This document shows positions 44,056-57,816 of a DNA stretch of 64,000 nt, in pieces (position 1 is the stretch's first letter; the number at the start of each line of letters is the position of its first letter). Location of the stretch: positions 7,084-71,083 of IMG/VR virus record IMGVR_UViG_3300032247_000914. One strand, 5' to 3'. The position numbers and the translations under genes were made by a program. The notes under the pieces were generated by a model. The model saw only the letters and a list, made by a program, of their open reading frames with translations, did not search any database and was not told where the DNA came from. Source of the stretch: a virus. Lineage: Duplodnaviria > Caudoviricetes.

Positions 44056-44059
44056 AATA

Positions 44060-44133
44060 TGGAGCGGGTAGCGAGAATCGAACTCGCGAGTGTTCCTTGG
44101 CAAGGAACCAGGTTACCATTACATCATACCCGC
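44060..44133 (-). tRNA. tRNA-Gly(GCC)
   Basis: Cloverleaf, loop TTGCCAA, CCA. Confidence 0.92.
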
Positions 44134-45342
44134 ATTGTTATCTTTAGTATCTGCTAATAACTGGACTAACTCATCTCTAACATCAAATTGTTTCATATGT
44201 TGATGGAATGATGGTTCAGCCCAGGTAGCATACCCTGGTGGAATTTTGGTAGTTATATTTGGATGTTTCCATGTTGGATCAACAATTCTAGACACTACTC
44301 CCCTGAACATGGGATCTTTTGTCAGTGAGTTTTTGATGCATTTAACACCACGTTCTGTAGCATACCGCCAAAATTCCGTTTCGTAAACTTGATTTTTAAA
44401 ATAATGGAACATGATCATGGTTTCCATTTCTCTAATCATTCTATCATATTTGGTATTGGCCAAACTAAAGTGTTTGCCTTCTTTCCATACAGCTTCGGCA
44501 GCCCATTGTATAACATCCATAAAATAAATCGAAGTTGCTTCAATGGGTTCAAGGAAAAAACTGGCATTGCCGTTATAACACAGTCTAGGATAAAAATTTT
44601 GTTTTCTATAATAATTTTTGAAACTGAAAGTGTTGGTATGATCGCTTGGTGTTAGGTTGTAATCACCAAATACTGTTTGTACATCTTCTTTGACTTGATC
44701 CAATGTGGCTGTTTGGTTGTTGTAAACATACCCAATACTACATCTATTTCGCAAAGGAATTCCAAATACCCAACCGTGTTTTCTCGCAAGATTCAATGAT
44801 GTATGGAATCTAGCATAGTCCCAATAGCACTGTGTGACATGTACTGAATTGACAGGAATATAGTCTGATATAACAAATTGATCTAGATCAGCTTCGCTGG
44901 GTTTGCCCGAGCAGTCTACAATGTAGGTACAATCAATATCGTCATAGCTGGCGACATTTCGATCTATAATTTTTACTCTAGGAGACTGCTGAACATAATC
45001 TAAAATAAAATCCTGTAGCTTGTTGGCATTGAAATGATAGGCATTGAACCCGGCGCTGAACCAATGTATAAATTCATCACCGTCAGACCCCCACCCAGAT
45101 TTCTGAATTCCCAGTTTGGGAGTGCCATCTATCTTTTCTAAATCTCCGTAGGTGAATCCCAAATTGTGGAATAACTGTATGGGAAATTCCAAAGTGGATC
45201 CTTCACCCACTGCTTGTGGTGGCTTATTGCCGTCAAAATACCAATCAATATCCCATTTGGTACTTTTTAAAAAATGCGAAACAGTATAGGCTCCCGCAGT
45301 ACCACGCCCAATAACTGCTAATTTTATTTTATTCATGCCCAT
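44119..45342 (-). CDS. Flavin-dependent halogenase-like
   Basis: GRGTAG, VGEGST, WVFGIP, FLEPIEAT; stop lies inside tRNA-Gly. Confidence 0.8.
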   Translation of the reverse strand: MGMNKIKLAVIGRGTAGAYTVSHFLKSTKWDIDWYFDGNKPPQAVGEGSTLEFPIQLFHNLGFTYGDLEKIDGTPKLGIQKSGWGSDGDEFIHWFSAGFNAYHFNANKLQDFILDYVQQSPRVKIIDRNVASYDDIDCTYIVDCSGKPSEADLDQFVISDYIPVNSVHVTQCYWDYARFHTSLNLARKHGWVFGIPLRNRCSIGYVYNNQTATLDQVKEDVQTVFGDYNLTPSDHTNTFSFKNYYRKQNFYPRLCYNGNASFFLEPIEATSIYFMDVIQWAAEAVWKEGKHFSLANTKYDRMIREMETMIMFHYFKNQVYETEFWRYATERGVKCIKNSLTKDPMFRGVVSRIVDPTWKHPNITTKIPPGYATWAEPSFHQHMKQFDVRDELVQLLADTKDNNAGMM

Positions 45343-45351
45343 ATTTAAGGA

Positions 45352-46515
45352 TTATTGTAATAGTAAAGATAGATCTTGAGCCAGTCCCATGCCTTCAATA
45401 TTGGCTGTATAAGACACTTGACCCCATGTACCATAGCCTAGGTCCACTAACACTGGATTTAGTAATTTACCTTCAACAGCATGTTTGATTACTGATTTAA
45501 ACAACATTTGTCTTTTCACAGTTTCTTTTATACGTGCTTGACCCCGATTGGTGGCAAACTTCCAAAAATCACTATCATACATATCATTTTTATAATAGTG
45601 TAACATGATCATATCTTCTAGTCTATTGATGTAATCATAATAGGTTTTATTTGGGTTTTCACTCTTGCCAGTCCAATGACGATGCGCCATGACATTTACC
45701 ACATTCATACAGGCAATTGATGTGGCTTCTAGGGGTTCTAAAAAGAAACTGGCATTGCCGTTAAATGCCACTCGACCATAAAAGTTTTGTTTACGGTAAT
45801 AATTATTGAATGTAAAACTATTTGTAGTTTGGCTAGGTGTTAGGCCGTACTGATCAAAAATTGATTGAACATCTTCCTTGACTTCATCTATGGTATTGAT
45901 TTTATGATTATACAAATAACCAATGCTACATCTATTTTGTAGAGGAATACCAAAAACCCATCCATGTTTTTTGGCAATGTTCAATGAATATTGAAATCTT
46001 GGAGTGTCCCAATAGCATTGAGTAACATGAACAGCATTGACTGGAATAGTTTGGGGAAGATGGTAATGGTCTAGTTCACTTTCGCTGGGTTTACCTGAAC
46101 AGTCCAACACAAAGTCAGAATCAATGTCACTGTAACTTTTTATATTACCGTTAAGGATTTTTACTCGGCTCTGAGTGCCCGCATAATTTATGATCCACTC
46201 TTGAAGTTTGACAGCATTGAAATGATAGGCCACAGTACCAGATGGGAACAAATGATAATATTCTTCACCAGATCCCCATCCTTGTTTTTTGATGCCTGCT
46301 TTAAATGTACCGTCTACGCTGTCTAGCTGTGGCAATTTGAATCCCAAGTATTGATCCAGGTTGACTGGAAATTCCACAGTGGAACCTTCGCCAACACTTT
46401 GGGGAGACACATTGGGATCAAAATACCAATCAATATCCCAATTGGTGTTTTTTAAAAAATACGCAATAGCATAACATCCTGCCGTGCCTCGGCCAATAAT
46501 TGTTAACTTTTTCAT
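45352..46515 (-). CDS. Flavin-dependent halogenase-like
   Basis: GRGTAG, VGEGST, WVFGIP, FLEPLEAT; close paralog of neighbour. Confidence 0.8.
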   Translation of the reverse strand: MKKLTIIGRGTAGCYAIAYFLKNTNWDIDWYFDPNVSPQSVGEGSTVEFPVNLDQYLGFKLPQLDSVDGTFKAGIKKQGWGSGEEYYHLFPSGTVAYHFNAVKLQEWIINYAGTQSRVKILNGNIKSYSDIDSDFVLDCSGKPSESELDHYHLPQTIPVNAVHVTQCYWDTPRFQYSLNIAKKHGWVFGIPLQNRCSIGYLYNHKINTIDEVKEDVQSIFDQYGLTPSQTTNSFTFNNYYRKQNFYGRVAFNGNASFFLEPLEATSIACMNVVNVMAHRHWTGKSENPNKTYYDYINRLEDMIMLHYYKNDMYDSDFWKFATNRGQARIKETVKRQMLFKSVIKHAVEGKLLNPVLVDLGYGTWGQVSYTANIEGMGLAQDLSLLLQ

Positions 46516-46529
46516 CTAGCTATTTAATA

Positions 46530-46607
46530 TGGAGTACGGGGTCGGATTTGAACCGACGGTTTTACGATTTTGCAGACCGTTGCATTGGGCCTCTCTGCCA
46601 CCCGTAC
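46530..46607 (-). tRNA. tRNA-Cys(GCA)
   Basis: Loop CTGCAAA, U73, CCA. Confidence 0.9.
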
Positions 46608-46615
46608 ATAAAATC

Positions 46616-46882
46616 TCAACCAGTTCTTTTGATAATGTGATAGCCAAACTGTGTTTGAACTGGGCCAGTGTGTGAACCAACATTAATACTGGCAACAGCA
46701 TCTTCAAATGGTTTAACCATTTGTCCTGGGCCAAATTCACCCAAGTCGCCACCGTTGTTACTGCTAGGACACTTGCTGAATTTTTTGGCCATTTCTTCAA
46801 AATTGCTACTGTTAAGATTGATTAGTTGCCTAAGTTCCTTGGCCAATTCTAAATTATCTACTAAAATATGACTTGCTCTCAT
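46616..46882 (-). CDS. ppiC: Parvulin peptidyl-prolyl isomerase
   Basis: ASHILV, SKCPS..GGDLGEF, MVKPFE, FGYHII. Confidence 0.92.
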   Translation of the reverse strand: MRASHILVDNLELAKELRQLINLNSSNFEEMAKKFSKCPSSNNGGDLGEFGPGQMVKPFEDAVASINVGSHTGPVQTQFGYHIIKRTG

Positions 46883-46894
46883 TTATTTTCCTTA

Positions 46895-47161
46895 TTAGCC
46901 TGTGCGTTTGATTATGTGATACCCAGCTGGGGTCTTGATTGGACCAGTATGTGAGCCAATACCAATACTGTTTAAAGCCGCCTCAAAAGCAGGATCCATT
47001 TGACCTGGAGCTATTTCTCCTAAATCTGCCAGATTATTTTTGCTATCTGGGCATGTACTATGTGTAAAGGCCAACATCGATATATCAATACCTTGATTGA
47101 TTTTTTTCCTAATCAATTGTGCTTCTTCTAATGTGTCCACTAAAATGTGACTGGCTCTCAT
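46895..47161 (-). CDS. ppiC: Parvulin peptidyl-prolyl isomerase paralog
   Basis: ASHILV, DLGEI..GQM, GYHIIKRTG. Confidence 0.85.
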   Translation of the reverse strand: MRASHILVDTLEEAQLIRKKINQGIDISMLAFTHSTCPDSKNNLADLGEIAPGQMDPAFEAALNSIGIGSHTGPIKTPAGYHIIKRTG

Positions 47162-47180
47162 TGGTTTTTCCTTATTAAAT

Positions 47181-47255
47181 TGGTACCTCGTGACAGGGTC
47201 GAACTGCCGACATTCGCCGTGTAAAGGCGCTACTCTACCACTGAGTTAACGAGGC
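47181..47255 (-). tRNA. tRNA-Val(TAC)
   Basis: Loop TTTACAC, CCA. Confidence 0.9.
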
Positions 47256-47268
47256 TCTTAAACATTAT

Positions 47269-47922
47269 TTAACCTGCATTATTATTGATGAAAGAATCTC
47301 CAAGACCATACTCACCTATCGGGTGAAGATTAAATGCTAAAGAATACCTAGTCAAATTTGAATTATGACGAGTAATTCTATGAAACAAATAACTAGGAAA
47401 AAATACCAGCATGTTTTTCCTTGGCGATATTGTAAATCCTTCAGTATTCAATAAATTATATTCTTCTATTCCGCCTAATAAAAAATTGGATAAACTTAGA
47501 TTATGATTTCCAAATTCTAATATACCACCATCTATAATTTCATCAAAATAAAGAACGCCACTGTAAAAACTATTCTTGTGGGAATGAAATTGTGATTCCC
47601 CGCCACGCTTTACCTTAGTGCCCCATGATGTGGTTATTATAAATTTCTTATTGGAAATTCGCAACACATTTTGAATATAGTCGTCAAAATTATCTAATAT
47701 TGAATTTTCTAAATCGGGAAACTGCTTCAAGATTTTTCTATCTGTTGTTGAATAAGCAGGAATCGTTCCATTAAAATTTGTTCCAGATGCTTGATTAATA
47801 TAAAATTCACTATTTTTAATCTGTGTTTTAACAGCAGTTAGGTCAGCGGTCAAAAATGTAGTGGACACTGGTGAACTGAACGCTGGAAACACTGTGAATT
47901 TAGATATTTCAAAACTATACAT
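47269..47922 (-). CDS. 2OG-Fe(II) oxygenase (TIGR02466-like)
   Basis: HSHKNS, FPSYLFH, RYSLAFN. Confidence 0.75.
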   Translation of the reverse strand: MYSFEISKFTVFPAFSSPVSTTFLTADLTAVKTQIKNSEFYINQASGTNFNGTIPAYSTTDRKILKQFPDLENSILDNFDDYIQNVLRISNKKFIITTSWGTKVKRGGESQFHSHKNSFYSGVLYFDEIIDGGILEFGNHNLSLSNFLLGGIEEYNLLNTEGFTISPRKNMLVFFPSYLFHRITRHNSNLTRYSLAFNLHPIGEYGLGDSFINNNAG

Positions 47923-47931
47923 ATTATCCTA

Positions 47932-48005
47932 TGGAGCGGGGTAGGAGAATCGAACTCCTCGCTTTAGCTTGGAAGGCTAAGGTATTACCACTATACGAAC
48001 CCCGC
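47932..48005 (-). tRNA. tRNA-Gly(TCC)
   Basis: Loop CTTCCAA, CCA. Confidence 0.92.
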
Positions 48006-48305
48006 ATACTTTAATTAAACACACTTGGAACGTTTCACAACGGCGGTGTTCTTGCCTAAATACCTAAACTACGTTTAGATCAAGTACGTTTAATTAAAGT
48101 GTCTAGCTACCTACACCACATAGGCCCTAGACTGAGCAGTTACTCTGTCCACGTATTTCTTCTTCTGGTAAAGGTTAACGTTCCTCACCTTAGGCAGTTT
48201 TCGGTATCCCATATAGCGGGACCGTAAGGTCAAGTCCTAATGTACCCCCTAGTCTATCGTTCAAGGGACGCTCTTATTATAACGTAAAAGAGTAAACCGG
48301 GTTAC
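48006..48305 (-). ncRNA. Candidate ~300-nt structured RNA between tRNAs
   Basis: No ORF; many inverted repeats incl. 13-bp ACTTTAATTAAAC/GTTTAATTAAAGT and long-range GGAACGTT/AACGTTCC. Confidence 0.5.
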
Positions 48306-48381
48306 TGGTGCCCTTTGTCGGATTCGAACTGACCACCTACGCATTACAAGTGCGTTGCTCTACCAAATGAGCTAAAAGGGC
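48306..48381 (-). tRNA. tRNA-Thr(TGT)
   Basis: Loop CTTGTAA, CCA. Confidence 0.92.
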
Positions 48382-48393
48382 AATATAACTTAA

Positions 48394-48969
48394 TTATCTA
48401 TTAAATTTCAACACCATGTTAATTACGATCCTATCATTGCTCTCAACAGGGTTACTGGATGCATGTTTTATGTGCGATGGAAATACCAAAACCCTACCTT
48501 GTTTGGGCGTTACCCTAGCTGTTTCGTCAGGATAAAATAAACAAGTATCGCCATCCGCATCTTTAACATAGTAAATTGCTGAGATAAAATCAACAGGATT
48601 ATCCACATCTACATGTGGGGTATTCCACCTACCTGCCGCTTCCTTTACTCTCCAAAGCAAATTAAATTTAACTCTGTTAATCAAGAGATTCTTGAATTTT
48701 TCATCAGGTTTTAAATGATAGTCTATTGCCTTCAATATGGGATACACAGCACGAACTGGACATACCGATTGTTCCTTGATGGTTTCTCCAAAAATTGGAC
48801 TCACTAGTTGACCAACATCATAAATCTCATCAGTGTCTGTAGGTGGGTCACCATTGCTACCTATGACAGTATTTGTATCATAAAACCATTTTAAATATCG
48901 AGTAACACTTATAAGTTTTTTTTGATCATCTACCGTCATGACACCATCAATGATGATATGACGATCCAT
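48394..48969 (-). CDS. 2OG-Fe(II) oxygenase-like
   Basis: PHVD, YYV..DGDT, HAS, RIVIN. Confidence 0.75.
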   Translation of the reverse strand: MDRHIIIDGVMTVDDQKKLISVTRYLKWFYDTNTVIGSNGDPPTDTDEIYDVGQLVSPIFGETIKEQSVCPVRAVYPILKAIDYHLKPDEKFKNLLINRVKFNLLWRVKEAAGRWNTPHVDVDNPVDFISAIYYVKDADGDTCLFYPDETARVTPKQGRVLVFPSHIKHASSNPVESNDRIVINMVLKFNR

Positions 48970-48971
48970 GA

Positions 48972-49142
48972 TTACTCAACTGTATTTTGCTTTGGATCCA
49001 TCATTTTAGCGTCCCACTCGGCCAAACGTTGACGGAACTCATCTTCTGTCAAATTATGCCAACCAATACAGTGACCAATTGGACTGCGGCCACAGCCGCA
49101 TGTACCAAACTCTTTTGGATCTTCTTTTACTCTAATCTGCAT
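48972..49142 (-). CDS. CDGSH-like Fe-S/Zn finger mini-protein (56 aa)
   Basis: Missed by track; CGCGRSPIGHCIGWH. Confidence 0.6.
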   Translation of the reverse strand: MQIRVKEDPKEFGTCGCGRSPIGHCIGWHNLTEDEFRQRLAEWDAKMMDPKQNTVE

Positions 49143-49386
49143 GTCGTACCTTTCTAAATTTTTCTAAATATTCAACGCCCACATGTCCAGCTTCAATTTC
49201 TTGTAGTGCGCTGACAATATTTCCATTCGGAGTATTTACTAGCTTTCTACTGCCATGAGCAAGTTCACGGGCACGTATACTAGCGACTAATACTAGATTA
49301 AATCTATTACCAATCTTTTCAACACAAACATCGTTATTAAGCGAGTTGGTCAAAGTCTTCTTTTCAATCGCAAATGGAAAATTCAT
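49132..49386 (-). CDS. rpoZ: RNA polymerase omega subunit homolog
   Basis: VEKIGNRFNLVLVASIRAREL...ALQEIEAG closely follows the omega consensus. Confidence 0.85.
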   Translation of the reverse strand: MNFPFAIEKKTLTNSLNNDVCVEKIGNRFNLVLVASIRARELAHGSRKLVNTPNGNIVSALQEIEAGHVGVEYLEKFRKVRHAD

Positions 49387-49404
49387 AAGATCCTAATTGT
49401 TATA

Positions 49405-49487
49405 TGGTGCGGACGGTGAGACTCGAACTCACACCCCGAAAGACTGGCTTCTAAGACCAGCGCGGCTACCAATTACGCCACGTCCGC
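49405..49487 (-). tRNA. tRNA-Leu(TAG)
   Basis: Loop CTTAGAA, variable arm, CCA. Confidence 0.92.
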
Positions 49488-49502
49488 ATTGTTTAAAAAT
49501 TA

Positions 49503-49531
49503 ATTGTAACACATTATTTACAACATGTCAA
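49503..49531 (-). promoter_or_regulatory. sigma70-type promoter
   Basis: TTGACA-17-TACAAT. Confidence 0.75.
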
Positions 49532-49534
49532 CAA

Positions 49535-50071
49535 TTAAATTGTGAAATTATAATTTATAATCATCCTTAAATTTTCTTGAGGACAACTACTAGCATGATA
49601 TCTCAATCCATCAAAGAATACCGCACGACCTTTTTTTGGTTGTATGCGCTGTATCACAACAGATTTGGTATCATCAAATATCAATGTGTCACCGTCTGAA
49701 TCATCAACGTAGTAAACACATACCACATGTGGGAAATTTTGATCCCTATGTATGTTGTTGTGCTCTGTTTTAAATTTTTCAACTACGGGCAACTGTATAA
49801 ACGGTCTAATCTGTATCAGCTGATCAATTTCCAGTTTGGCCTGCTCACAAGCATTGACTAGTACATCATTGAACTGATCAAAATATTTTTCATCTTTAAA
49901 GGAAGTCAGTGCCTCAAATACACTGGTGACCAATCCTGGGGTGATAAAATTACCCTTGTCTAAAAAGAAATGCCAACCAGAAGTATTTTTCAACAACAAG
50001 GAATTTTTGATGTCATCTTGTTGCTGTACTGAAACCACATCATCTGCAATTATTACATTATTACCTATCAT
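49535..50071 (-). CDS. 2OG-Fe(II) oxygenase-like
   Basis: IHRD, YYVDDSDGDT, YHAS, RMIIN. Confidence 0.75.
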   Translation of the reverse strand: MIGNNVIIADDVVSVQQQDDIKNSLLLKNTSGWHFFLDKGNFITPGLVTSVFEALTSFKDEKYFDQFNDVLVNACEQAKLEIDQLIQIRPFIQLPVVEKFKTEHNNIHRDQNFPHVVCVYYVDDSDGDTLIFDDTKSVVIQRIQPKKGRAVFFDGLRYHASSCPQENLRMIINYNFTI

Positions 50072-50658
50072 AGTAGCGTATAGTTAGCGATACAGCGTAT
50101 GTCTTTGGTTGGTGGTGTACTGGAATGAAAACGTGTGCCATTGAACAGTATACATCTGCCTTTTTTAGGACTGACTCTTTGATGTTCTTCTATACTACCA
50201 AGGCTCACTGTGTCACCATAAAACGGTTTAAACAACACTGTATCCCCGTCTGTATCATTTACATAGTACAAGCATACCAAATGATCAAATGTATGATCCA
50301 CATGTACATTGTCGTATTTTTTATGTAGTTCTTCTCTCATGGGAAAATGTAAAAAACTCCTACTGGCCAATATTTTCTTCAATGGAAAATTGATTTTTTT
50401 TGCCGCGGCATGAGCAATTACTTTCATTTCGTCAAACATAAACTTGTTATGATACTTGATCAACTCGTCATTGAAATAACTGGCCATACCTGGAGTGCGC
50501 TGTGTTATTCCAGCTCTTGCCATATCTTCTTTAGATAGGGCGATGTCATGCATATAGACCCAGGATGTTCTATGCCCAAGCAACAAAGACTCGATTTTAT
50601 CCTGTGTTACTTTTGGTATAACATTGTCTAAAATTATAATTTCATTTTTATCTATCAT
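50068..50658 (-). CDS. 2OG-Fe(II) oxygenase-like
   Basis: VHVD, YYVNDTDGDT, FHSS, RCIAN. Confidence 0.75.
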   Translation of the reverse strand: MIDKNEIIILDNVIPKVTQDKIESLLLGHRTSWVYMHDIALSKEDMARAGITQRTPGMASYFNDELIKYHNKFMFDEMKVIAHAAAKKINFPLKKILASRSFLHFPMREELHKKYDNVHVDHTFDHLVCLYYVNDTDGDTVLFKPFYGDTVSLGSIEEHQRVSPKKGRCILFNGTRFHSSTPPTKDIRCIANYTLL

Positions 50659-52923: not shown

Positions 52924-54330
52924 TTAGAAGCTGTAACGATCGCTCATCACAGTCTTCAACATGATGCCTTCTGGTGTGAATTCACTCATGTCTGCGGCCA
53001 ATAGTGCCTTGGCAATAGCTGGGCTAAAACCTGACACTAGTGCGGAACCACTCTTGTCTGACTTAACAGGCACGTTATCTGAACTGTTTAGGTTCCAGAA
53101 AACAACTTGTGGTACAGCATAGCCTGCGGCTTCGTACTTGCGTTCAATCATCTCCATTGCTGAAGAGTCATGCTTTACACATTGGTTGAACTGCATGTCA
53201 CTCAAGATCAATACCATTTCTGGCATTTCTTCTTGAGGAACATTACCCTTTACAGCAACATCAAGGATCTTGCTGAAAGCCGCATGTAGGTTAGTACTCA
53301 TGCCCCAATCGGACTTAACCATTTGGGCCATCTTTTGAACCACATCACCCTTTAGGGTCATTAGTTCTGGCCGGTCACTGAAAGTTAGGAACGTGTCCTT
53401 GAACTTGCCGGTGTTCTTTTCAGCCAAATACAAACCTAGTGAAACTGCCACATCCATACAAGTGACCTTAGAGTTCTTGCCTGCTGGGCATGACATAGAA
53501 CCGCTAACGTCAACTAGTGGTAGGATGTTTGCGTCGCCAACATAGTTAGGCAAAGCCTCCCATTGAGCAACGATCAAATCAGTTTCTGTCTTGTCAAAAG
53601 TGCGGTAGTTACCAACACCCTTCAAGACATCGTAAGGGAAAATTGCCGAAGCATTTACCTTTACGGTTGGGTCGCCCTTAACCAAACTCGCAACATACTC
53701 AGCGAACTTTGTAGTGTTACGGTTAAATGCCTTCTTGTAACGGCTGGCCGCTACACTTGGCACATGGCTAAAGTTGATGTTATCCCAGTCCTTGGCACAC
53801 ATTTGTGTTTCAACGACCTTGGTAAGTGCTACTAGACTCTTACGGTAGAACTTTGGGCTCATACCAAAGAATTCACGGATTTCACGTGCTACTTCACCCT
53901 TACGTGGAGTCCACTTAGCAGCCAAGCCATTCTTCTCACGAAGAGCGTCGCCCAGCATTGTGTAAGCGGCTGACTTCAATTCCTTGTCAGTAAAGACAAA
54001 GATGTCGTCCCAACGACCCAATTCTGGAATCTTCTTCAAGAGAGCCATGGCGGCCAACTTGTCAGTCTTTTCCAGGTACTTCAGGATTGAACGGAACAAT
54101 TCACGTTCACCTGCTCCACCACGAGCATCACGTGCCCATAGTGCGATACGCAGTGCTAGTTCGCGATCAGCCACCAAAGCGGCTGTAAAGGCAGGAACAA
54201 TGTCCTTGCCACGGCTAGCACCAATGTTATAAAATAGATCAACCACCTTATTGGAAGTTGACTTGCGAGCCTTCATACCATTAGCGGTACGGGCTTCTTG
54301 ATTTGCTACTGCTTCTACAAATGTTGCCAT
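52924..54330 (-). CDS. TROVE-like plus vWA domain protein (DUF2828 type, Ro60-related)
   Basis: WARDARGGAGERELF, GRWDD, AAKWTP, LVDVSGSM MIDAS, ILSDMQF, VVFWNL; GAAAGGAG RBS. Confidence 0.8.
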   Translation of the reverse strand: MATFVEAVANQEARTANGMKARKSTSNKVVDLFYNIGASRGKDIVPAFTAALVADRELALRIALWARDARGGAGERELFRSILKYLEKTDKLAAMALLKKIPELGRWDDIFVFTDKELKSAAYTMLGDALREKNGLAAKWTPRKGEVAREIREFFGMSPKFYRKSLVALTKVVETQMCAKDWDNINFSHVPSVAASRYKKAFNRNTTKFAEYVASLVKGDPTVKVNASAIFPYDVLKGVGNYRTFDKTETDLIVAQWEALPNYVGDANILPLVDVSGSMSCPAGKNSKVTCMDVAVSLGLYLAEKNTGKFKDTFLTFSDRPELMTLKGDVVQKMAQMVKSDWGMSTNLHAAFSKILDVAVKGNVPQEEMPEMVLILSDMQFNQCVKHDSSAMEMIERKYEAAGYAVPQVVFWNLNSSDNVPVKSDKSGSALVSGFSPAIAKALLAADMSEFTPEGIMLKTVMSDRYSF

Positions 54331-54343
54331 GATTGGCTCCTTT

Positions 54344-54403
54344 CAGGTTAATGCCTTGCGGCGGGTTTCATTATGCTTGAAAATTGATTGCTGAACTTAA
54401 CCT
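54344..54403 (-). ncRNA. CAGCAA-motif RNA A (in 5' leader of TROVE-like gene)
   Basis: AGGUUAA-GUU-CAGCAA...UUAACCU-G; internal GCC-GCAA-GGC; abuts RBS. Confidence 0.65.
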
Positions 54404-54416
54404 ATATAAATTCAAA

Positions 54417-54583
54417 CAGGATCGTTGTCGACTGCTTTTATTTTACTCAGGCCATCACTCTGAGCTTGTTAGTCTTGCTTCAATAGCCGCCTTCAACGCT
54501 AGGCAGTTTTACGTGCTTTGCTCCAACAGACTACCACAGTGTCTAACAGTTCTTAAGTAGATTAAGATTGCTGAACCGATCCT
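54417..54583 (-). ncRNA. CAGCAA-motif RNA B (167 nt)
   Basis: AGGAUCG-GUU-CAGCAA...CGAUCCU-G; several internal hairpins. Confidence 0.65.
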
Positions 54584-54617
54584 AAAACTGTCTAACAAGT
54601 TTCCTTGCTATGTGTAT

Positions 54618-54646
54618 ATTGTATGTGAAACACGGACTTGTGTCAA
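54618..54646 (-). promoter_or_regulatory. sigma70-type promoter driving RNA B, RNA A and the TROVE-like gene
   Basis: TTGACA-17-TACAAT. Confidence 0.8.
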
Positions 54647-54661
54647 TACAATTTGGAAAAA

Positions 54662-54781
54662 CAGGATACGTTTTTTACGAAGGCTTTTGAGGCCTTTGCT
54701 CAACCGCTGAGCGAATCTGGCATGAAGCCAAATGTTGGAATCGAACCAACGTGTCATAAATGACTTTGCTGTGCGTATCCT
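54662..54781 (-). ncRNA. CAGCAA-motif RNA C with permuted tRNA arms (YrlA-like)
   Basis: AGGAUACG-CA-CAGCAA...CGUAUCCU-G; T arm, short stem-loop, D-like arm, Leu-CAA anticodon arm. Confidence 0.7.
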
Positions 54782-54787
54782 CAAACT

Positions 54788-54863
54788 TGGTGCCGCCCCC
54801 AGGGATCGAACCTGGTTCCTCGGTGCTTCAAACCGGTGCTATGACCACATCAGCTAAAGCGGC
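54788..54863 (-). tRNA. tRNA-Phe(GAA)
   Basis: Loop TTGAAGC, CCA. Confidence 0.88.
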
Positions 54864-54871
54864 AAATTATT

Positions 54872-54946
54872 TGGCCCGGCGTAGAGGAATCGAACCTCTA
54901 TAAAGACTTTAGAAGAATCTTGTCCTATCCATTGAACGAACGCCAG
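54872..54946 (-). tRNA. tRNA-Arg(TCT)
   Basis: Loop CTTCTAA, CCA. Confidence 0.9.
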
Positions 54947-54954
54947 TTAACCTT

Positions 54955-54983
54955 ATTATACACTGGTTTTCAGTGTAAGTCAA
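54955..54983 (-). promoter_or_regulatory. sigma70-type promoter
   Basis: TTGACT-17-TATAAT. Confidence 0.75.
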
Positions 54984-54986
54984 ATA

Positions 54987-55064
54987 TGGTACCCTAGGTC
55001 AGATTCGAACTGACACGATTCTCCTTTTGAGAGAGACGCCTCATACCAATTGGGCTACTAGGGC
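54987..55064 (-). tRNA. tRNA-Leu(CAA), short variable region
   Basis: Loop CTCAAAA, CCA. Confidence 0.85.
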
Positions 55065-55075
55065 ATTAAAAAATT

Positions 55076-55149
55076 TGGTAGTTCCTGAAAGAATCGAACT
55101 TTCATTTACGCCATGTCACGGCATTGTTCTGCCATTAAACTAAGGAACT
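55076..55149 (-). tRNA. tRNA-Val(GAC)
   Basis: Loop GTGACAT, CCA. Confidence 0.8.
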
Positions 55150-55155
55150 ATATAC

Positions 55156-55247
55156 TGGTACCAGCGGAGGGGATCGAACCCTCTCAAGAACGCTAATCTG
55201 GCGCTAAAAGGCTTATAAGACCTCTCTGACTTCCAAGTCTCGCTGGC
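55156..55247 (-). tRNA. tRNA-Ile(TAT) with long variable arm
   Basis: Loop CTTATAA, 92 nt, CCA. Confidence 0.8.
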
Positions 55248-55256
55248 ATTAAAAAT

Positions 55257-55332
55257 TGGGGTGTCTTACCGGTATCGATCCGGTACCACCAGTTTCACAG
55301 ACTAGTATGCAGGCCACTACACTAAAGACACC
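55257..55332 (-). tRNA. tRNA-His(GTG)
   Basis: Loop CTGTGAA, G-1 opposite C73. Confidence 0.9.
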
Positions 55333-55343
55333 ATAATTTAATT

Positions 55344-55420
55344 TGGTGAGTCCTGACGGATTCGAACCGCCGACAACCAGTTTCGAAGACTGGGACTCTA
55401 TCCAACTGAGCTAAGGACCC
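55344..55420 (-). tRNA. tRNA-Arg(TCG)
   Basis: Loop CTTCGAA, CCA. Confidence 0.92.
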
Positions 55421-55866
55421 GAAGAGTTGAAATGTGGATATTCGTAATTAATAGTTTCTACGTTATCCCTAAAAACTACAGCACCATTTAGTAGATGAAA
55501 TCTACGTGCTAACTGTGTTGGTGGGCTTAATGTAACAAACCTTTTAATGTTTGGCTTATGCTCTTTTATGTGCGATAGCGCATTAAAAATTAATGTCCTA
55601 CCTGCTCCTGTAGCATAACTCCAGATTGTGTAAAATACAGCAGTATCTGGATCGTTGTGTAAAGTAAAAAGTTCGTTCTCTGATTTAGGAACAAAATCTT
55701 GATAGCTTATACATGTGATTGCTTTGACTTTTCCTTCTTCATCTTTATAAACAAAGATGTCTTTGTTGTCACCGATCCTATTTAAAATAGGAATAGTTGG
55801 TCGAACAGGATCCTCGTTCAAAAAGTTTATATATTGATCTGTTTCTGATTTTATTGCGTATAACAT
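55411..55866 (-). CDS. Hypothetical protein, possibly GNAT-like
   Basis: AVFYTIWSY..GAGR, FVTLSP; stop inside tRNA-Arg(TCG). Confidence 0.55.
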   Translation of the reverse strand: MLYAIKSETDQYINFLNEDPVRPTIPILNRIGDNKDIFVYKDEEGKVKAITCISYQDFVPKSENELFTLHNDPDTAVFYTIWSYATGAGRTLIFNALSHIKEHKPNIKRFVTLSPPTQLARRFHLLNGAVVFRDNVETINYEYPHFNSSGP

Positions 55867-55930
55867 GGCGGTCCGATTGTTTGGTGGTATACACTTAATT
55901 ATCTTAATATATTATAATTCTGTTAATTAT

Positions 55931-56006
55931 TGGTGGTGATGGTGAGACTCGAACTCACGATAATCTCCGTATGAAGGAGGTACATTGGCCGCTATGCTAC
56001 ATCACC
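55931..56006 (-). tRNA. tRNA-Met or Ile2 (CAT)
   Basis: Loop TTCATAC, CCA. Confidence 0.85.
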
Positions 56007-56007
56007 A

Positions 56008-56196
56008 TTATACTTGGATATCAACGTTCGCACCTTTGATATTGGCAGGACGAACTTTGGCTGTATCATCATACAGGTATTGTTCTACTTCTATGACTTT
56101 TTTATGAGTAACAGGATCTTCCAAAGTTGTGTAAACAGTTTTTCGATTACTGTTGTAAACTCTATCCCAAACATTAAGTACGCTCTGTATGATCAT
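56008..56196 (-). CDS. Hypothetical protein (62 aa)
   Basis: Start reassigned to MIIQSV. Confidence 0.5.
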   Translation of the reverse strand: MIIQSVLNVWDRVYNSNRKTVYTTLEDPVTHKKVIEVEQYLYDDTAKVRPANIKGANVDIQV

Positions 56197-56212
56197 ATTG
56201 TATTTAATACCA

Positions 56213-56310
56213 TATAGAAACACACTAGTGAAATCGCACCACCCCAGTTTCACGCTGAGTTCCCAGTAGCTACAGAGGCATTGTCCTCCTGCGAATAATG
56301 TGTTTTTATA
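56213..56310 (-). ncRNA. Candidate ~100-nt structured RNA abutting tRNA-Lys CCA
   Basis: Ends pair (TATAAAAACACA/TGTGTTTCTATA); inner TCGCA/TGCGA multiloop. Confidence 0.45.
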
Positions 56311-56385
56311 TGGTAGGGGCACCGGGACTCGAACCCGGATAGATCGGTTAAAAGCCGACTATTCTAGCCTTTGAATTATACCCCC
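56311..56385 (-). tRNA. tRNA-Lys(TTT)
   Basis: Loop CTTTTAA, CCA. Confidence 0.92.
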
Positions 56386-56388
56386 ATA

Positions 56389-56464
56389 TGGTCCCTAGCG
56401 TCAGATTTGAACTGACACCTCATCGGTTAAGAGCCGAGTACGCTACCATTAACGCCAGCTAGGG
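56389..56464 (-). tRNA. tRNA-Lys(CTT)
   Basis: Loop CTCTTAA, CCA. Confidence 0.92.
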
Positions 56465-56527
56465 ATGGATTCGTAATTGATTTTCTTTTACGTGCCATCC
56501 AGGACCATACGGGGGTCTAGGATGACA

Positions 56528-56551
56528 CTATCGTTTCGCTGAACGTTTCAT
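56528..56551 (-). CDS. Putative leader peptide MKRSAKR
   Basis: GGAGAA RBS; ATG AAA CGT TCA GCG AAA CGA TAG; stop runs into a 9-bp hairpin. Confidence 0.5.
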   Translation of the reverse strand: MKRSAKR

Positions 56552-56576
56552 ATCATTCTCCATTTAAAAAATTGAA

Positions 56577-56789
56577 TTTGTAAGTAGTTGCCCCATCGTT
56601 ATAGCAACCATTCACCCGTGTAATAAACTCGAGCGGGACTCGGTACGTCACTTGGGATTCATCCAGTTTGTCTCCGTTGCAGACCACAGCAATTAGCTCA
56701 CCGTGCGGGAGTTGAACCCAAAACCTTCTACTTGACAGTACCTTCGAAGAATACTTACAAGCGTGACTTCACTTGCTGACACTTACAAA
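56577..56789 (-). ncRNA. CAGCAA-motif RNA G (213 nt)
   Basis: UUUGUAAGU-GU-CAGCAA...ACUUACAAA; internal GGG-UUCAACU-CCC T-arm-like hairpin. Confidence 0.55.
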
Positions 56790-56792
56790 ACT

Positions 56793-56866
56793 TGGTGCTC
56801 CATCGAGGAATCGAACCACGATTGCCGGACTACAAAACCGGAGTATTTCCATTATACTAATAGAGC
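56793..56866 (-). tRNA. tRNA-Thr(TGT), second copy
   Basis: Loop TTTGTAG with U31-U39 mismatch, CCA. Confidence 0.75.
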
Positions 56867-56874
56867 AAATAAAA

Positions 56875-56935
56875 CAGGATAGCATTTTTTGGCTTTTTTT
56901 CAAGAAAAGATTTTTTAATTTGCTGTTACTATCCT
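56875..56935 (-). ncRNA. CAGCAA-motif RNA D carrying a Ser(UGA) anticodon stem-loop
   Basis: AGGAUAG-UAA-CAGCAA...CUAUCCU-G; CUUUU-CUUGAAA-AAAAG. Confidence 0.7.
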
Positions 56936-56940
56936 AAAAC

Positions 56941-57018
56941 TGGTCGGAGTAGTAGGATTCGAACCTACGACCCTCTGCTCCCAAAGCAGATGCGCTAGCC
57001 AGGCTGCGCTATACTCCG
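56941..57018 (-). tRNA. tRNA-Pro(TGG)
   Basis: Loop TTTGGGA, CCA. Confidence 0.92.
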
Positions 57019-57028
57019 AATAAACTAT

Positions 57029-57102
57029 TGGCATCCCCCCAGAGACTCGAACTCCGACGAACGGTTTTGGAGACCGCTATGCTGCCATTACATCAGGGAG
57101 AT
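57029..57102 (-). tRNA. tRNA-Trp(CCA)
   Basis: Loop CTCCAAA, CCA. Confidence 0.9.
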
Positions 57103-57108
57103 AAAACT

Positions 57109-57183
57109 TGGCGCCGCAGACGGGAATCGAACCCGCCTAAGTTGGATAGACAATCCAGTGCTCTCCCAGAGAACTACTACGGC
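57109..57183 (-). tRNA. tRNA-Asp(GTC)
   Basis: Loop TTGTCTA, G73, CCA. Confidence 0.85.
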
Positions 57184-57189
57184 AAAAAC

Positions 57190-57263
57190 TGGCAGGCGCA
57201 TTAGGGATCGAACCTAAACTAACAGAGTCAAAGTCTGTTGTGCTACCATTACACAATGCGCCA
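57190..57263 (-). tRNA. tRNA-Gln(TTG)
   Basis: Loop CTTTGAC, U1-U72 mismatch, CCA. Confidence 0.9.
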
Positions 57264-57272
57264 ACAATAAAA

Positions 57273-57330
57273 CAGGATACATTTTCTTTTATACCAAAAA
57301 AAGTTATATAAAATTTGCTGTTAGTATCCT
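57273..57330 (-). ncRNA. CAGCAA-motif RNA E
   Basis: AGGAUAC-UAA-CAGCAA...GUAUCCU-G; weak U-rich internal hairpin. Confidence 0.65.
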
Positions 57331-57336
57331 AAAACT

Positions 57337-57411
57337 TGGTAGCCACGGACAATTTCGAAATGTCGACTTATCGCTTATCAAGCGATTACTCTGCCTCTGA
57401 GTTACGCGGCT
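57337..57411 (-). tRNA. tRNA-Ile(GAT)
   Basis: Loop TTGATAA, CCA. Confidence 0.88.
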
Positions 57412-57416
57412 AAATT

Positions 57417-57491
57417 TGGTGGAGGCCGAGGAAATCGAATCCTTCTAGACAGCATCCTTGCAAGGGATACCCGTAGCCCACTACTGCCCCC
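57417..57491 (-). tRNA. tRNA-Ala(TGC), atypical D arm
   Basis: GGGGGC/GCCTCC with G3-U70, loop CTTGCAA. Confidence 0.8.
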
Positions 57492-57500
57492 AAATTGTAT

Positions 57501-57576
57501 TGGCTCCCCAGGGTGGGATCGAACCACCGACACCTTGATTAACAGTCAAGTGCAACTACCGCTGTGCTACTAGGGA
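57501..57576 (-). tRNA. tRNA-Asn(GTT)
   Basis: Loop CTGTTAA, CCA. Confidence 0.92.
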
Positions 57577-57585
57577 ATAAACTTT

Positions 57586-57660
57586 TGGTGCCTCCGGATG
57601 GAATCGAACCACCATCCCCGCGTTCGTAGCACGGTATCCTGTCCATTGAACGACAGAGGC
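57586..57660 (-). tRNA. tRNA-Arg(ACG)
   Basis: Loop CTACGAA, CCA. Confidence 0.92.
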
Positions 57661-57669
57661 AAACTAACT

Positions 57670-57745
57670 TGGTATAGCGTACGGGAATCGAACCCGCCTA
57701 GTCACCTTGAAAGGGTGATGACCTAGCCCAGAAGTCTAACGCTAT
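57670..57745 (-). tRNA. tRNA-Glu(TTC)
   Basis: Loop CTTTCAA, CCA. Confidence 0.88.
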
Positions 57746-57754
57746 ATAATAAAA

Positions 57755-57816
57755 CAGGATGCTTTTTTACGGTTTTGATTAAAAGTCAAATGTATAAAAT
57801 TTGCTGAACGCATCCT
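57755..57816 (-). ncRNA. CAGCAA-motif RNA F carrying a Lys(UUU) anticodon stem-loop
   Basis: AGGAUGC-GUU-CAGCAA...GCAUCCU-G; UUUGA-CUUUUAA-UCAAA. Confidence 0.7.

What the first reader, a model, noticed from the sequence alone, without database searches (positions are those of the whole stretch)
54662..54781. RNA C: circularly permuted tRNA arms (YrlA-like) plus a Leu-CAA anticodon arm
Seen 5'-3' inside the closing helix: GUCA-UUUA-UGAC; T arm GUUGG-UUCGAUU-CCAAC; UGGC-UUCAU-GCCA; D-like arm GCUCA-GCGGU-UGAGC; anticodon arm AAGGC-CUCAAAA-GCCUU. Established: YrlA Y RNAs have the permuted order T arm, loop-closed acceptor stem, D arm. Inference: a Y-RNA-like tRNA mimic. The added anticodon arm is not part of the YrlA layout I know.
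Basis: partly seen in the sequence, partly recalled or inferred. Interest (0 to 1): 0.85.

Follow-up and report, generated by a model that had tools for sequence, protein, structure and literature searches.

The report
Permuted tRNA-like phage Y-type RNA
A large phage encodes, at the end of one of its tRNA operons, a strongly conserved 120-nt RNA that is a complete tRNA body with its ends moved, held in a "handle" shared with five other RNAs beside the gene for a Ro60-shaped protein, so it is most likely that protein's tRNA-mimicking partner RNA rather than a decoding tRNA.

Summary

Across 13 homologues, 98% of cells pair and 17 of 23 pairs show compensatory change.

Re-joined in silico, the RNA is called a complete class-II tRNA-Leu(CAA). 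All five arms are therefore present, in permuted order.

The closing helix is a conserved handle: 7 bp, 3 nt, CAGCAA, then a 3' G. Five other RNAs in this tRNA array share it. The same handle lies beside the gene in four distant phages, but not in the phage T5 tRNA region.

That gene, 331 nt downstream, is DUF2828/DUF7788. Its model (pLDDT 91.5) matches only Ro60/TROVE structures over its full length.

The Y-RNA-like tRNA-mimic reading therefore holds, but formal YrlA membership fails. Rfam RF02553 gives no hit, and CAGCAA replaces the GNCGAA motif.

The anticodon arm is clade-specific. Its loop varies among near-identical copies, while the other 113 positions are invariant against 21% neutral divergence. 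"Leu-CAA" is therefore not a conserved identity.

Protein binding and expression are untested. This scan has noted the CAGCAA/DUF2828 pairing before on other DNA. I found it neither in Rfam 15 nor in the papers searched.

The parts
54774..54781 (-). Handle, 5' strand (AGGAUACG)
   Evidence: Pairs with 54663-54670. Four of the 7 modelled pairs covary and the helix is 100% paired in the family.
54765..54773 (-). Single-stranded spacer plus the CAGCAA motif (CAGCAA at 54766-54771)
   Evidence: CAGCAA is invariant in all 13 aligned homologues. The same motif, at the same 3-nt distance from the helix, occurs in five other RNAs of the window.
54753..54764 (-). Variable-arm hairpin (GUCA-UUUA-UGAC)
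   Evidence: MFE fold. Relatives keep a hairpin of different sequence and length at this place. ARAGORN places it as the class-II variable arm.
54734..54750 (-). T arm (GUUGG-UUCGAUU-CCAAC)
   Evidence: Three of 5 pairs covary, and the loop positions GGUUCGAnUCC are invariant.
54715..54733 (-). Loop-closed 7-bp acceptor-like stem (AUUUGGC / UUCAU / GCCAGAU)
   Evidence: All 7 pairs show compensatory change in the family. No CCA is encoded.
54698..54712 (-). D arm (GCUCA-GCGGU-UGAGC), preceded by U8 and C9
   Evidence: Three of 4 pairs covary, and A14, G18 and G19 are invariant. A partial Rfam tRNA hit covers 54680-54712 at 21 bits.
54680..54696 (-). Anticodon-like arm (AAGGC-CUCAAAA-GCCUU), specific to this clade
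   Evidence: Found only in the window's contig, 3 IMG/VR contigs and 6 metagenome contigs. The stem is kept, but the loop varies in sequence and length.
54662..54679 (-). A-rich tail (54671-54679), handle 3' strand CGUAUCCU (54663-54670) and the conserved 3' G (54662), followed by a U run
   Evidence: The A109, A110, CC and final G positions are invariant.
54788..54863 (-). tRNA-Phe(GAA), which ends 6 nt before RNA C
   Evidence: ARAGORN and Rfam. Homologues of RNA C likewise follow a tRNA 3' CCA plus a GUUU spacer.
54955..54983 (-). Sigma-70-like promoter (TTGACT-17-TATAAT) ahead of tRNA-Arg(UCU), tRNA-Phe and RNA C
   Evidence: Consensus scan, 11 of 12 matches. Inferred transcription unit only.
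54618..54646 (-). Sigma-70-like promoter (TTGACA-17-TACAAT) starting the next unit: two handle RNAs and the Ro60-like gene
   Evidence: Consensus scan, 11 of 12 matches.
54417..54583 (-). Second handle RNA (167 nt, AGGAUCG...CGAUCCUG)
   Evidence: Regex, strict finder and model R1.
54344..54403 (-). Short handle RNA whose 3' strand runs into the ribosome-binding site of the Ro60-like gene
52924..54330 (-). 468-aa DUF2828/DUF7788 protein with the Ro60 fold (HEAT-repeat ring plus a vWA domain with a complete MIDAS motif)
   Evidence: Pfam. AF2 model pLDDT 91.5. The Foldseek top 13 matches are all Ro60/TROVE over the full length. D274, S276, S278, T346 and D378 are invariant.
56875..57816 (-). 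Three further short handle RNAs among the tRNAs (56875-56935, 57273-57330, 57755-57816)
   Evidence: Model R1 hits of 33-38 bits through the handle; strict finder.

Best explanation
RNA C is a stable non-coding RNA made as the last gene of a tRNA operon. It has two modules.

Module 1 is a handle: a 7-8 bp helix joining the two ends, an internal loop with CAGCAA on the 5' side and an A run on the 3' side, and a 3' G. I infer that this handle is the binding site of the Ro60-fold DUF2828 protein encoded 331 nt downstream, in the way the terminal stem of a Y RNA binds Ro60.

Module 2 is a complete, circularly permuted class-II tRNA body that should fold into the tRNA L-shape. I infer that it is the effector module: a tRNA mimic that brings a tRNA-recognising factor to the protein ring, or occupies such a factor. 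Recognition would be through the invariant elbow and acceptor side, not through the anticodon.

Shown here: the structure, its covariation, strong purifying selection, the Ro60 fold of the neighbouring protein, and the recurrence of handle RNAs beside this gene in very distant phages.

Inferred only: protein binding, expression and processing, and the identity of the effector.
For: 1. The fold and covariation are strong.
2. A covariance model built only from jumbo-phage copies finds full-length members in Shigella phage Sf17 (70.3 bits) and Mycobacterium phage JoeDirt (61.1 bits), each next to the DUF2828 gene. The T5 tRNA region gives only scores of 21 bits or less, on tandem tRNAs.
3. The JoeDirt member also hits Rfam YrlA at 39.8 bits, E 1.5e-7, through its T, acceptor and D arms.
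4. The handle is clustered, on one strand, and lies around the gene. There are 6-7 motif hits per related genome within about 30 kb, against 0-1 for the reversed control. The strict finder gives 3, 3 and 4 hits beside the gene in BUCT-ZZ01, JoeDirt and Sf17, against 0.1-0.35 in shuffles.
5. One handle copy overlaps the gene's own ribosome-binding site. In KVP40 a handle-like helix includes the start codon.
6. The protein has the Ro60 fold over its full length: E 2.5e-8 to 1.5e-6, TM 0.47-0.64. The next-best matches cover the vWA domain only.
7. Selection is strong. Window against L117 shows 0 differences in 113 non-loop positions, although four-fold-degenerate sites of the adjacent ORF differ by 21%.
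8. In cyanophage BUCT-ZZ01 the same handle replaces the anticodon loop of two normally ended tRNA-like genes (Rfam tRNA 37.6 and 50.7 bits, with 52-53-nt inserts). "tRNA body plus handle" is thus kept in both topologies.
Against: There is no direct evidence of expression, RNA ends or protein binding.

Rfam YrlA does not match RNA C, and the canonical Ro60-binding motif is absent.

The protein is not in Pfam TROVE. The only Ro60-specific sequence signal is weak: vWA_Ro60 at E 0.022, and TROVE chains at E 0.034 with a profile.

The tRNA-like cargo is not universal. Two nearly complete relatives (G001, G002) have handle RNAs but no tRNA-like member.
Confidence: 0.65

Rival explanations
1. RNA C is a decoy for a host nuclease or other defence factor that attacks tRNA anticodon loops. 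The anticodon-like arm is the bait, and the rest is a scaffold that gives it a tRNA context. This reading could coexist with the Ro60-like particle.
For: The window's loop CUCAAAA is identical to the loop of the phage's own tRNA-Leu(CAA) at 54987-55064. The loop changes faster than anything else in the RNA: 3 of 7 positions against 0 of 113. That pattern could reflect an arms race.
Against: The loop rate is not significantly above neutral: 43% against 21% at four-fold sites, P about 0.17. Drift explains it equally well. The variant loops CUAAACA and UUAAACA would give an AAA anticodon, and UCCAA has only 5 nt. Most members of the family have no anticodon arm at all. No nuclease specific for tRNA-Leu(CAA) is known to me; that last point rests on my own knowledge.
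Confidence: 0.12
2. The handle is a processing, stability or termination element of phage tRNA operons and has nothing to do with the DUF2828 protein. RNA C is then a free-standing, tRNA-derived stable RNA, like the unexplained stable RNAs of phages T4 and T5.
For: RNA C sits 6 nt after a tRNA. Both the tRNAs and the handle RNAs are followed by GUUU-type spacers. A U run follows the handle. T5 carries annotated tRNA-like stable RNAs of unknown function in its tRNA region.
Against: The T5 tRNA region, which has no DUF2828 gene listed in it, shows only background handle matches. In JoeDirt the three handle RNAs lie directly after the gene, and no tRNA gene is annotated in the 7.4-kb locus. One handle copy overlaps the gene's ribosome-binding site. 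DUF2828 is the only gene shared by all these neighbourhoods.
Confidence: 0.12
3. RNA C is a genuine circularly permuted tRNA gene. The ends at the handle would be cut and ligated and the acceptor loop opened, giving a decoding tRNA-Leu(CAA).
For: De-permutation gives a complete tRNA by ARAGORN, and the call is robust to how the junction is trimmed. The acceptor stem has 7 bp, the length at which M. smegmatis YrlA is cut by RNase P and receives CCA (PMC4201824).
Against: The anticodon is not conserved among near-identical copies, and the arm is missing in the next relatives. No CCA is encoded, whereas the eight tRNA genes of the window that I printed all end in CCA. A normal tRNA-Leu(CAA) lies about 200 nt upstream. 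The same handle closes RNAs that have no tRNA content. No RtcB or Rnl2-type ligase is found in the two near-complete relatives. Position 73 would be U.
Confidence: 0.03

Closest known systems
Bacterial and mycobacteriophage YrlA Y RNAs with Ro60/Rsr (Rfam RF02553; Chen et al. 2014, PMC4201824; Wang et al. 2018, bioRxiv 10.1101/312249)
   Same: A terminal stem joins the 5' and 3' ends. It encloses a tRNA-like domain in the order variable arm, T arm, loop-closed acceptor stem, D arm. The tRNA core nucleotides are conserved. The RNA lies next to the gene for a ring-shaped protein with HEAT repeats and a vWA domain, and several such RNAs occur per locus. A member of the same family in phage JoeDirt gives a sub-threshold but significant YrlA hit.
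   Different: RNA C gives no RF02553 hit. The protein-binding part has CAGCAA in place of GNCGAAN0-1G. The partner protein is DUF2828/DUF7788 rather than Pfam TROVE. RNA C has a separate anticodon-like stem-loop, whereas in YrlA the anticodon-stem equivalent runs on into the Ro60-binding stem and there is no anticodon loop.
Thermus phage phiLo Ro60 with its Y-RNA-like RNAs Yrl1 and Yrl2 (PMC12135203; PDB 9KOP, 9L5Y)
   Same: A phage-encoded Ro60-fold protein has its partner RNAs encoded just upstream of its gene. 9KOP and 9L5Y are among the best structural matches of the window's protein.
   Different: The phiLo RNAs were picked by a CGAA motif and a stem-bulge-stem shape, and the passages retrieved do not describe them as tRNA-like. 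That protein binds its RNAs and host PNPase in vitro. Nothing of the kind has been tested for the DUF2828 branch.
Circularly permuted tRNA genes of Cyanidioschyzon merolae and some archaea (recalled from my own knowledge, not checked here)
   Same: The 3' half of a tRNA precedes the 5' half in the gene, and a helix joins the precursor ends.
   Different: Those genes mature through a bulge-helix-bulge cut, ligation and opening of the acceptor end, and they keep a conserved anticodon. Here the anticodon is not conserved, the closing helix is a motif shared with non-tRNA RNAs, and no ligase was found.
Class I RNAs of dictyostelid social amoebae (Kjellin et al. 2021, PMC7919456)
   Same: A short covarying stem joins the ends. 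An adjacent conserved 11-nt single-stranded motif has fixed positions that fit xxTxxCxxCAA. The 3' end reads CUGU. The interior is variable. The window's handle reads ...CAGCAA and ends CCUGUU.
   Different: Class I RNAs are eukaryotic, about 60 nt long, have a 6-bp stem and carry no tRNA-like cargo. Only the handle resembles them, not RNA C as a whole. I checked only the paper's text, not its sequences.

Membership tests
YrlA (Rfam RF02553) | Scores at or above the family's gathering threshold (69 bits) with the curated covariance model | tested here: not met
   No hit on RNA C at E <= 10 in searches of 2.5 kb, 471 nt and the whole record. The JoeDirt relative reaches 39.8 bits.
YrlA (Rfam RF02553) | tRNA-like domain in the order variable arm, T arm, loop-closed acceptor stem, D arm, inside a stem formed by the two ends | tested here: met
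   MFE fold; covariation in 13 homologues.
YrlA (Rfam RF02553) | Conserved nucleotides of the tRNA tertiary core (U8, A14, G18, G19, T54, U55, C56, A58, pyrimidine 48) | tested here: met
   These columns are invariant in alignment A1. C48 precedes the T stem in RNA C.
YrlA (Rfam RF02553) | Ro60-binding module with the GNCGAAN0-1G motif on the 5' strand (Chen 2014) | tested here: not met
   The 5' strand reads AGGAUACG-CA-CAGCAAA. No CGAA is present, and CAGCAA is invariant instead.
YrlA (Rfam RF02553) | No anticodon loop; the anticodon-stem equivalent continues into the protein-binding stem (Wang 2018) | tested here: not met
   RNA C has a closed arm of 5 bp with a 7-nt loop between the D arm and the handle. 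Relatives have a 3-6 bp hairpin there.
YrlA (Rfam RF02553) | Encoded next to a Ro60/Rsr (TROVE plus vWA) gene | tested here: inconclusive
   The neighbour has the full-length Ro60 fold. By sequence it belongs to Pfam DUF2828/DUF7788, with only a weak vWA_Ro60 signal at E 0.022.
YrlA (Rfam RF02553) | Bound by Ro60 in vivo; carries tRNA modifications (D, T54, pseudouridine 55) | not testable with these tools
   This needs immunoprecipitation and modification mapping.
CAGCAA-handle RNAs beside DUF2828 genes (defined by this scan; not found in Rfam 15 or in the papers searched) | A 7-bp covarying terminal helix, a 3-nt spacer, CAGCAA, a variable interior, and a 3' strand followed by G | tested here: met
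CAGCAA-handle RNAs beside DUF2828 genes (defined by this scan; not found in Rfam 15 or in the papers searched) | On the strand of a DUF2828 gene and within a few kb of it, with several copies per locus | tested here: met
   There are six copies on the minus strand at 54344-57816, and the gene is at 52924-54330. The same arrangement is seen in 4 distant phages.
Functional (permuted) tRNA gene | All five arms with canonical spacing once the permutation is undone | tested here: met
   ARAGORN calls tRNA-Leu(CAA), 83-84 nt, whatever the trimming.
Functional (permuted) tRNA gene | Anticodon conserved among orthologues | tested here: not met
   Loops are CUCAAAA, CUAAACA, UUAAACA and UCCAA in copies otherwise 97-100% identical. 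The arm is reduced in the next relatives.
Functional (permuted) tRNA gene | A route to join the ends and free the acceptor end (processing motif, RNA ligase, CCA) | tested here: not met
   No CCA is encoded in the acceptor loop, whereas the window's tRNA genes that I printed encode it. No RtcB or Rnl2-type ligase is found in relatives that are 100% and 96% complete. A host ligase cannot be excluded.
Ro60/TROVE proteins (for the neighbouring gene) | HEAT-repeat ring plus a C-terminal vWA domain with a MIDAS motif | tested here: met
   The Foldseek top 13 matches are Ro60/TROVE chains over about 500 aligned columns. The DxSxS...T...D residues are invariant in 102 sequences.

The most novel reading that the evidence does not exclude
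RNA C may be opened in its acceptor loop by RNase P and given a CCA end, as happens to M. smegmatis YrlA, which has the same 7-bp stem. That would yield a two-piece but complete tRNA, tethered through its variable region to a Ro60-like ring. Together with the normally ended "handle-tRNAs" of cyanophage BUCT-ZZ01, this would mean the phage particle carries whole tRNAs that might even be charged. Their fast-changing anticodon loops would then serve as bait or adaptors in a conflict with host factors that target tRNA.
Probability: 0.1. Interest if true: 0.85.

Novelty: new variant of a known kind. Interest (0 to 1): 0.62.

Why it matters
Ro60 with its Y RNAs is a conserved RNA-surveillance particle. 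In bacteria, the factor that reads the tRNA-like part of YrlA is still unknown.

The DUF2828 family is very large: 6222 cluster representatives at E <= 0.001 and 705 phage records. It has no assigned RNA partner in the papers I searched.

RNA C adds three things.
- It shows that this branch carries YrlA-type tRNA mimics on a different handle.
- It is the most complete tRNA mimic of the set, with all five arms.
- Its comparison with the unpermuted handle-tRNAs of another phage bears on the proposal that YrlA arose from tandem tRNAs.

Family members exist in culturable phages of laboratory hosts: Felix-like Sf17 on Shigella and E. coli, and JoeDirt on M. smegmatis. Binding, processing and function are therefore directly testable.

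Tried and rejected
- Single-sequence AF2 model: pLDDT 42, unusable. It was replaced by a model with a 102-sequence alignment.
- phmmer of the protein against PDB sequences: no hit. A profile search gave only marginal TROVE/Ro60 hits at the MIDAS region.
- Two mistyped patterns found nothing relevant: one N too many and a wrong final base. Both were corrected.
- Full-text search for DUF2828 returned only plant and tardigrade papers. "Ro-like" plus phage plus tRNA gave only genome announcements and overexpression screens of phage LeBron. "Permuted tRNA" plus phage gave nothing relevant.
- The 2026 preprint on three tRNA-mimic families does not mention phages, Ro60 or TROVE.
- Supplementary tables of Chen 2014 and two Wolin reviews are not held. 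I therefore could not check whether cluster-L mycobacteriophage RNAs were in their phage list.
- Recent origin of RNA C from one of the window's 33 tRNAs was rejected: the best global identity is 67%.
- Pseudogene or chance repeat was rejected: 0 of 113 differences against 21% neutral divergence.
- ARAGORN calls on doubled cargo of relatives that lack the arm change with trimming, so I discarded them as artefacts.

Full report
**Context.** The window is part of a 71-kb IMG/VR viral contig estimated at 20% complete. It therefore comes from a very large phage; relatives reach 355 kb. It carries 33 tRNA genes, all on the minus strand.

**The observation.** Read on the minus strand from 54781 to 54662, the 120-nt stretch begins six bases after the CCA of tRNA-Phe.
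- Its minimum-energy and centroid folds are the same structure: an 8-bp closing helix and five hairpins.
- The fold energy is -40.0 kcal/mol, against -24.2 +/- 3.3 for shuffles (z -4.84).
- Two corrections apply. The "UGGC-UUCAU-GCCA" hairpin is a 7-bp stem that abuts the T stem, as an acceptor stem does. The first hairpin is a long variable arm.
- I cut the RNA in the acceptor loop and joined it across the handle in a script. ARAGORN then called a complete 83-84-nt class-II tRNA-Leu(CAA), with canonical spacers U8-C9 and A26 and a 7-nt anticodon loop.
- The call did not depend on how the junction was trimmed.
- RNA C is thus a full, circularly permuted tRNA body, not only "arms".

**Homologues and covariation.**
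- The downstream protein retrieved 80 related viral loci. Exact-pattern scans added more.
- Thirteen RNAs with the same layout were aligned.
- For the handle, T, acceptor and D helices, 98.2% of cells pair and 17 of 23 pairs change on both sides. None of 500 shuffles matches this, and partners slid by 1-3 columns pair at only 32-45%.
- The invariant columns are CAGCAA and the tRNA core: U8, A14, G18, G19 and the T-loop GGUUCGAnUCC.
- The variable arm is kept as a hairpin of changing sequence and length.
- A covariance model built from this alignment scores RNA C at 90.9 bits. RNA C is the only tRNA-like member in the window.
- The tRNA-like cargo is sporadic. There were 15 strong hits in 84 loci. 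One relative has three copies and another has two. Two nearly complete genomes have none.

**The closing helix is a shared handle.**
- A regular-expression scan found 199 elements in the loci with a perfect 7-nt complement. Each has the form (A/G)GG(A/U)U-nnn, three bases, CAGCAA, a variable interior of about 30-240 nt, then nnnA(A/U)CC(U/C)-G followed by U-rich sequence.
- All of them lie on the strand of the protein gene.
- The window has six such elements on the minus strand between 54344 and 57816.
- The 5' motif occurs 6-7 times in three of the five records searched, including the window's own, clustered and on one strand. The reversed control gives 0-1.

**The neighbouring protein.**
- The ORF at 54330-52924 (468 aa) matches Pfam DUF7788 and DUF2828 and PHROG 850, "RNA-binding protein".
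- It has relatives in 705 phage records, some annotated "Ro-like RNA binding protein".
- With a 102-sequence alignment, AF2 gave pLDDT 91.5 and pTM 0.90.
- The 13 best Foldseek matches in the PDB are all Ro60/TROVE proteins aligned over about 500 columns: Xenopus and human Ro60, D. radiodurans Rsr and Thermus phage phiLo Ro60. E-values run from 2.5e-8 to 1.5e-6 and TM-scores from 0.47 to 0.64.
- Everything below those 13 is a vWA domain alone. The MIDAS residues are invariant.

**Distant phages.**

| Phage | Handle RNAs found |
|---|---|
| Cyanophage BUCT-ZZ01 (47% protein identity) | 3 directly upstream of the gene |
| Mycobacterium phage JoeDirt (34%) | 3 directly downstream; the middle one is tRNA-like |
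| Felix-like Shigella phage Sf17 (41%) | 4 in the tRNA array that follows the gene; one is tRNA-like |
| Vibrio phage KVP40 | 1 after tRNA-Ser, plus a handle-like helix that contains the gene's start codon |

- My model, built only from jumbo-phage sequences, finds the Sf17 RNA at 70.3 bits and the JoeDirt RNA at 61.1 bits, both full length.
- The phage T5 tRNA region, which has 25 tRNAs, several stable RNAs and no DUF2828 gene listed, gives only background.
- The JoeDirt RNA also hits Rfam YrlA at 39.8 bits (E 1.5e-7, below the 69-bit threshold). The match lies on the T, acceptor and D arms and not on the outer stems.
- This links the family to YrlA through the tRNA-like domain, while the protein-binding part differs.

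**The anticodon-like arm.**
- The arm occurs in the window's contig, three IMG/VR contigs and six metagenome contigs.
- The stem is kept, and one variant lengthens it to 6 bp.
- The loop is CUCAAAA (window, L084), CUAAACA, UUAAACA, or a 5-nt UCCAA.
- The next relatives share identical T and acceptor arms but have only a 3-5 bp mini-hairpin at this position.
- Between the window and L117, all three differences fall in the 7-nt loop and none in the other 113 positions. Four-fold-degenerate sites of the adjacent ORF differ by 21%, and by 13.5% against L003.
- By my own binomial arithmetic on those counts, the chance of 0 changes in 113 neutral sites is about 3e-12. Three changes in 7 sites is not significantly above neutral (P about 0.17).
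- The RNA is therefore under strong purifying selection, while the loop sequence is free or fast-evolving.
- The window's loop is identical to that of the phage's own tRNA-Leu(CAA), but the identity is not conserved. This argues against decoding and gives at most weak support to a specific decoy role.

**A second topology.**
- Downstream of the BUCT-ZZ01 gene lie two tRNA-like genes with normal ends and an encoded CCA. They score 37.6 and 50.7 bits with the Rfam tRNA model.
- In both, a 52-53-nt insert containing the handle replaces the anticodon loop. Here the handle is closed by a small loop and reads CUGCAA.
- RNA C is the circular permutation of that design.
- The unit kept by selection is thus "tRNA elbow and acceptor side plus handle".
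- The tandem arrangement fits the tandem-tRNA origin proposed for YrlA.

**Mechanism.**
- A sigma-70-like promoter at 54983-54955 precedes tRNA-Arg(UCU), tRNA-Phe and RNA C. A second one at 54646-54618 starts the unit with two more handle RNAs and the protein gene.
- I infer that RNA C is released from the tRNA transcript by tRNA-processing nucleases, that the Ro60-like protein binds it through the handle, and that it presents a tRNA-shaped module to a factor that reads the elbow.
- By analogy with Ro60, that factor could be an exonuclease or a tRNA enzyme (PMC4201824, PMC12135203).
- No RtcB or Rnl2-type ligase is encoded in the two near-complete relatives. A phage-encoded repair ligase is therefore not part of the system in this clade.

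**Comparison and novelty.**
- Ro60 with tRNA-like Y RNAs is known in bacteria and in some phages.
- I found the DUF2828 branch with its CAGCAA handle neither in Rfam 15 nor in the papers searched.
- Those notes also pointed to the Class I RNAs of dictyostelids. The paper's text fits the handle: an end-joining stem, an 11-nt motif with C, C, A, A at positions 6, 9, 10 and 11, and a CUGU end.
- RNA C itself is a new variant of a known kind: a YrlA-type tRNA mimic on a different handle, with a full set of tRNA arms.

Noticed in passing
L108:5581-5824 (Synechococcus phage BUCT-ZZ01, ON615601.1): Two tandem tRNA-like genes have normal ends and an encoded CCA. Their anticodon loop is replaced by a 52-53-nt insert that contains the handle (helix CAUUCU/AGAAUG, motif CUGCAA). 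This is the unpermuted counterpart of RNA C.
   Followed up: partly
L107:3905-4005 (Vibrio phage KVP40): The DUF2828 gene's ribosome-binding site and AUG lie inside a handle-like element (GACAUU..CAGCAA..AAUGUC). This matches the RBS-overlapping handle at window 54344-54403 and suggests autoregulation.
   Followed up: partly
L037:1174-1375: A 202-nt family member has an acceptor-like stem extended to about 20 bp, carrying a branched insert of about 60 nt.
   Followed up: no
window 55156-55247 (minus): A 92-nt tRNA is called Ile(UAU) by ARAGORN, with its anticodon at position 31. Rfam places it under tRNA-Sec at 29.5 bits, below that family's threshold. Its length is unusual for an Ile tRNA.
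   Followed up: no
window 42224-50658 (minus): Three paralogous tryptophan-halogenase-like genes and four 2OG-Fe(II) oxygenase genes are interleaved with single tRNA genes.
   Followed up: no
L122:5285-8950 (phage T5, NC_005859): T5's annotated "tRNA-like stable RNAs with unknown functions" lie in its tRNA region but do not carry the CAGCAA handle.
   Followed up: partly
window 54662-54668 and 54782-54787; L086, L085, L021 upstream flanks: Both tRNA 3' ends (..CCA) and handle 3' ends (..CCUG) are followed by GUUU-type spacers. This may be a shared processing signal in these arrays.
   Followed up: no
L021:268-376 and L023:2608-2714: A second kind of handle RNA of 107-109 nt has its T-arm-like hairpin (GGGGUUCGAUUCCC) near the 3' end instead of the 5' side. 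The cargo arrangement is different.
   Followed up: no
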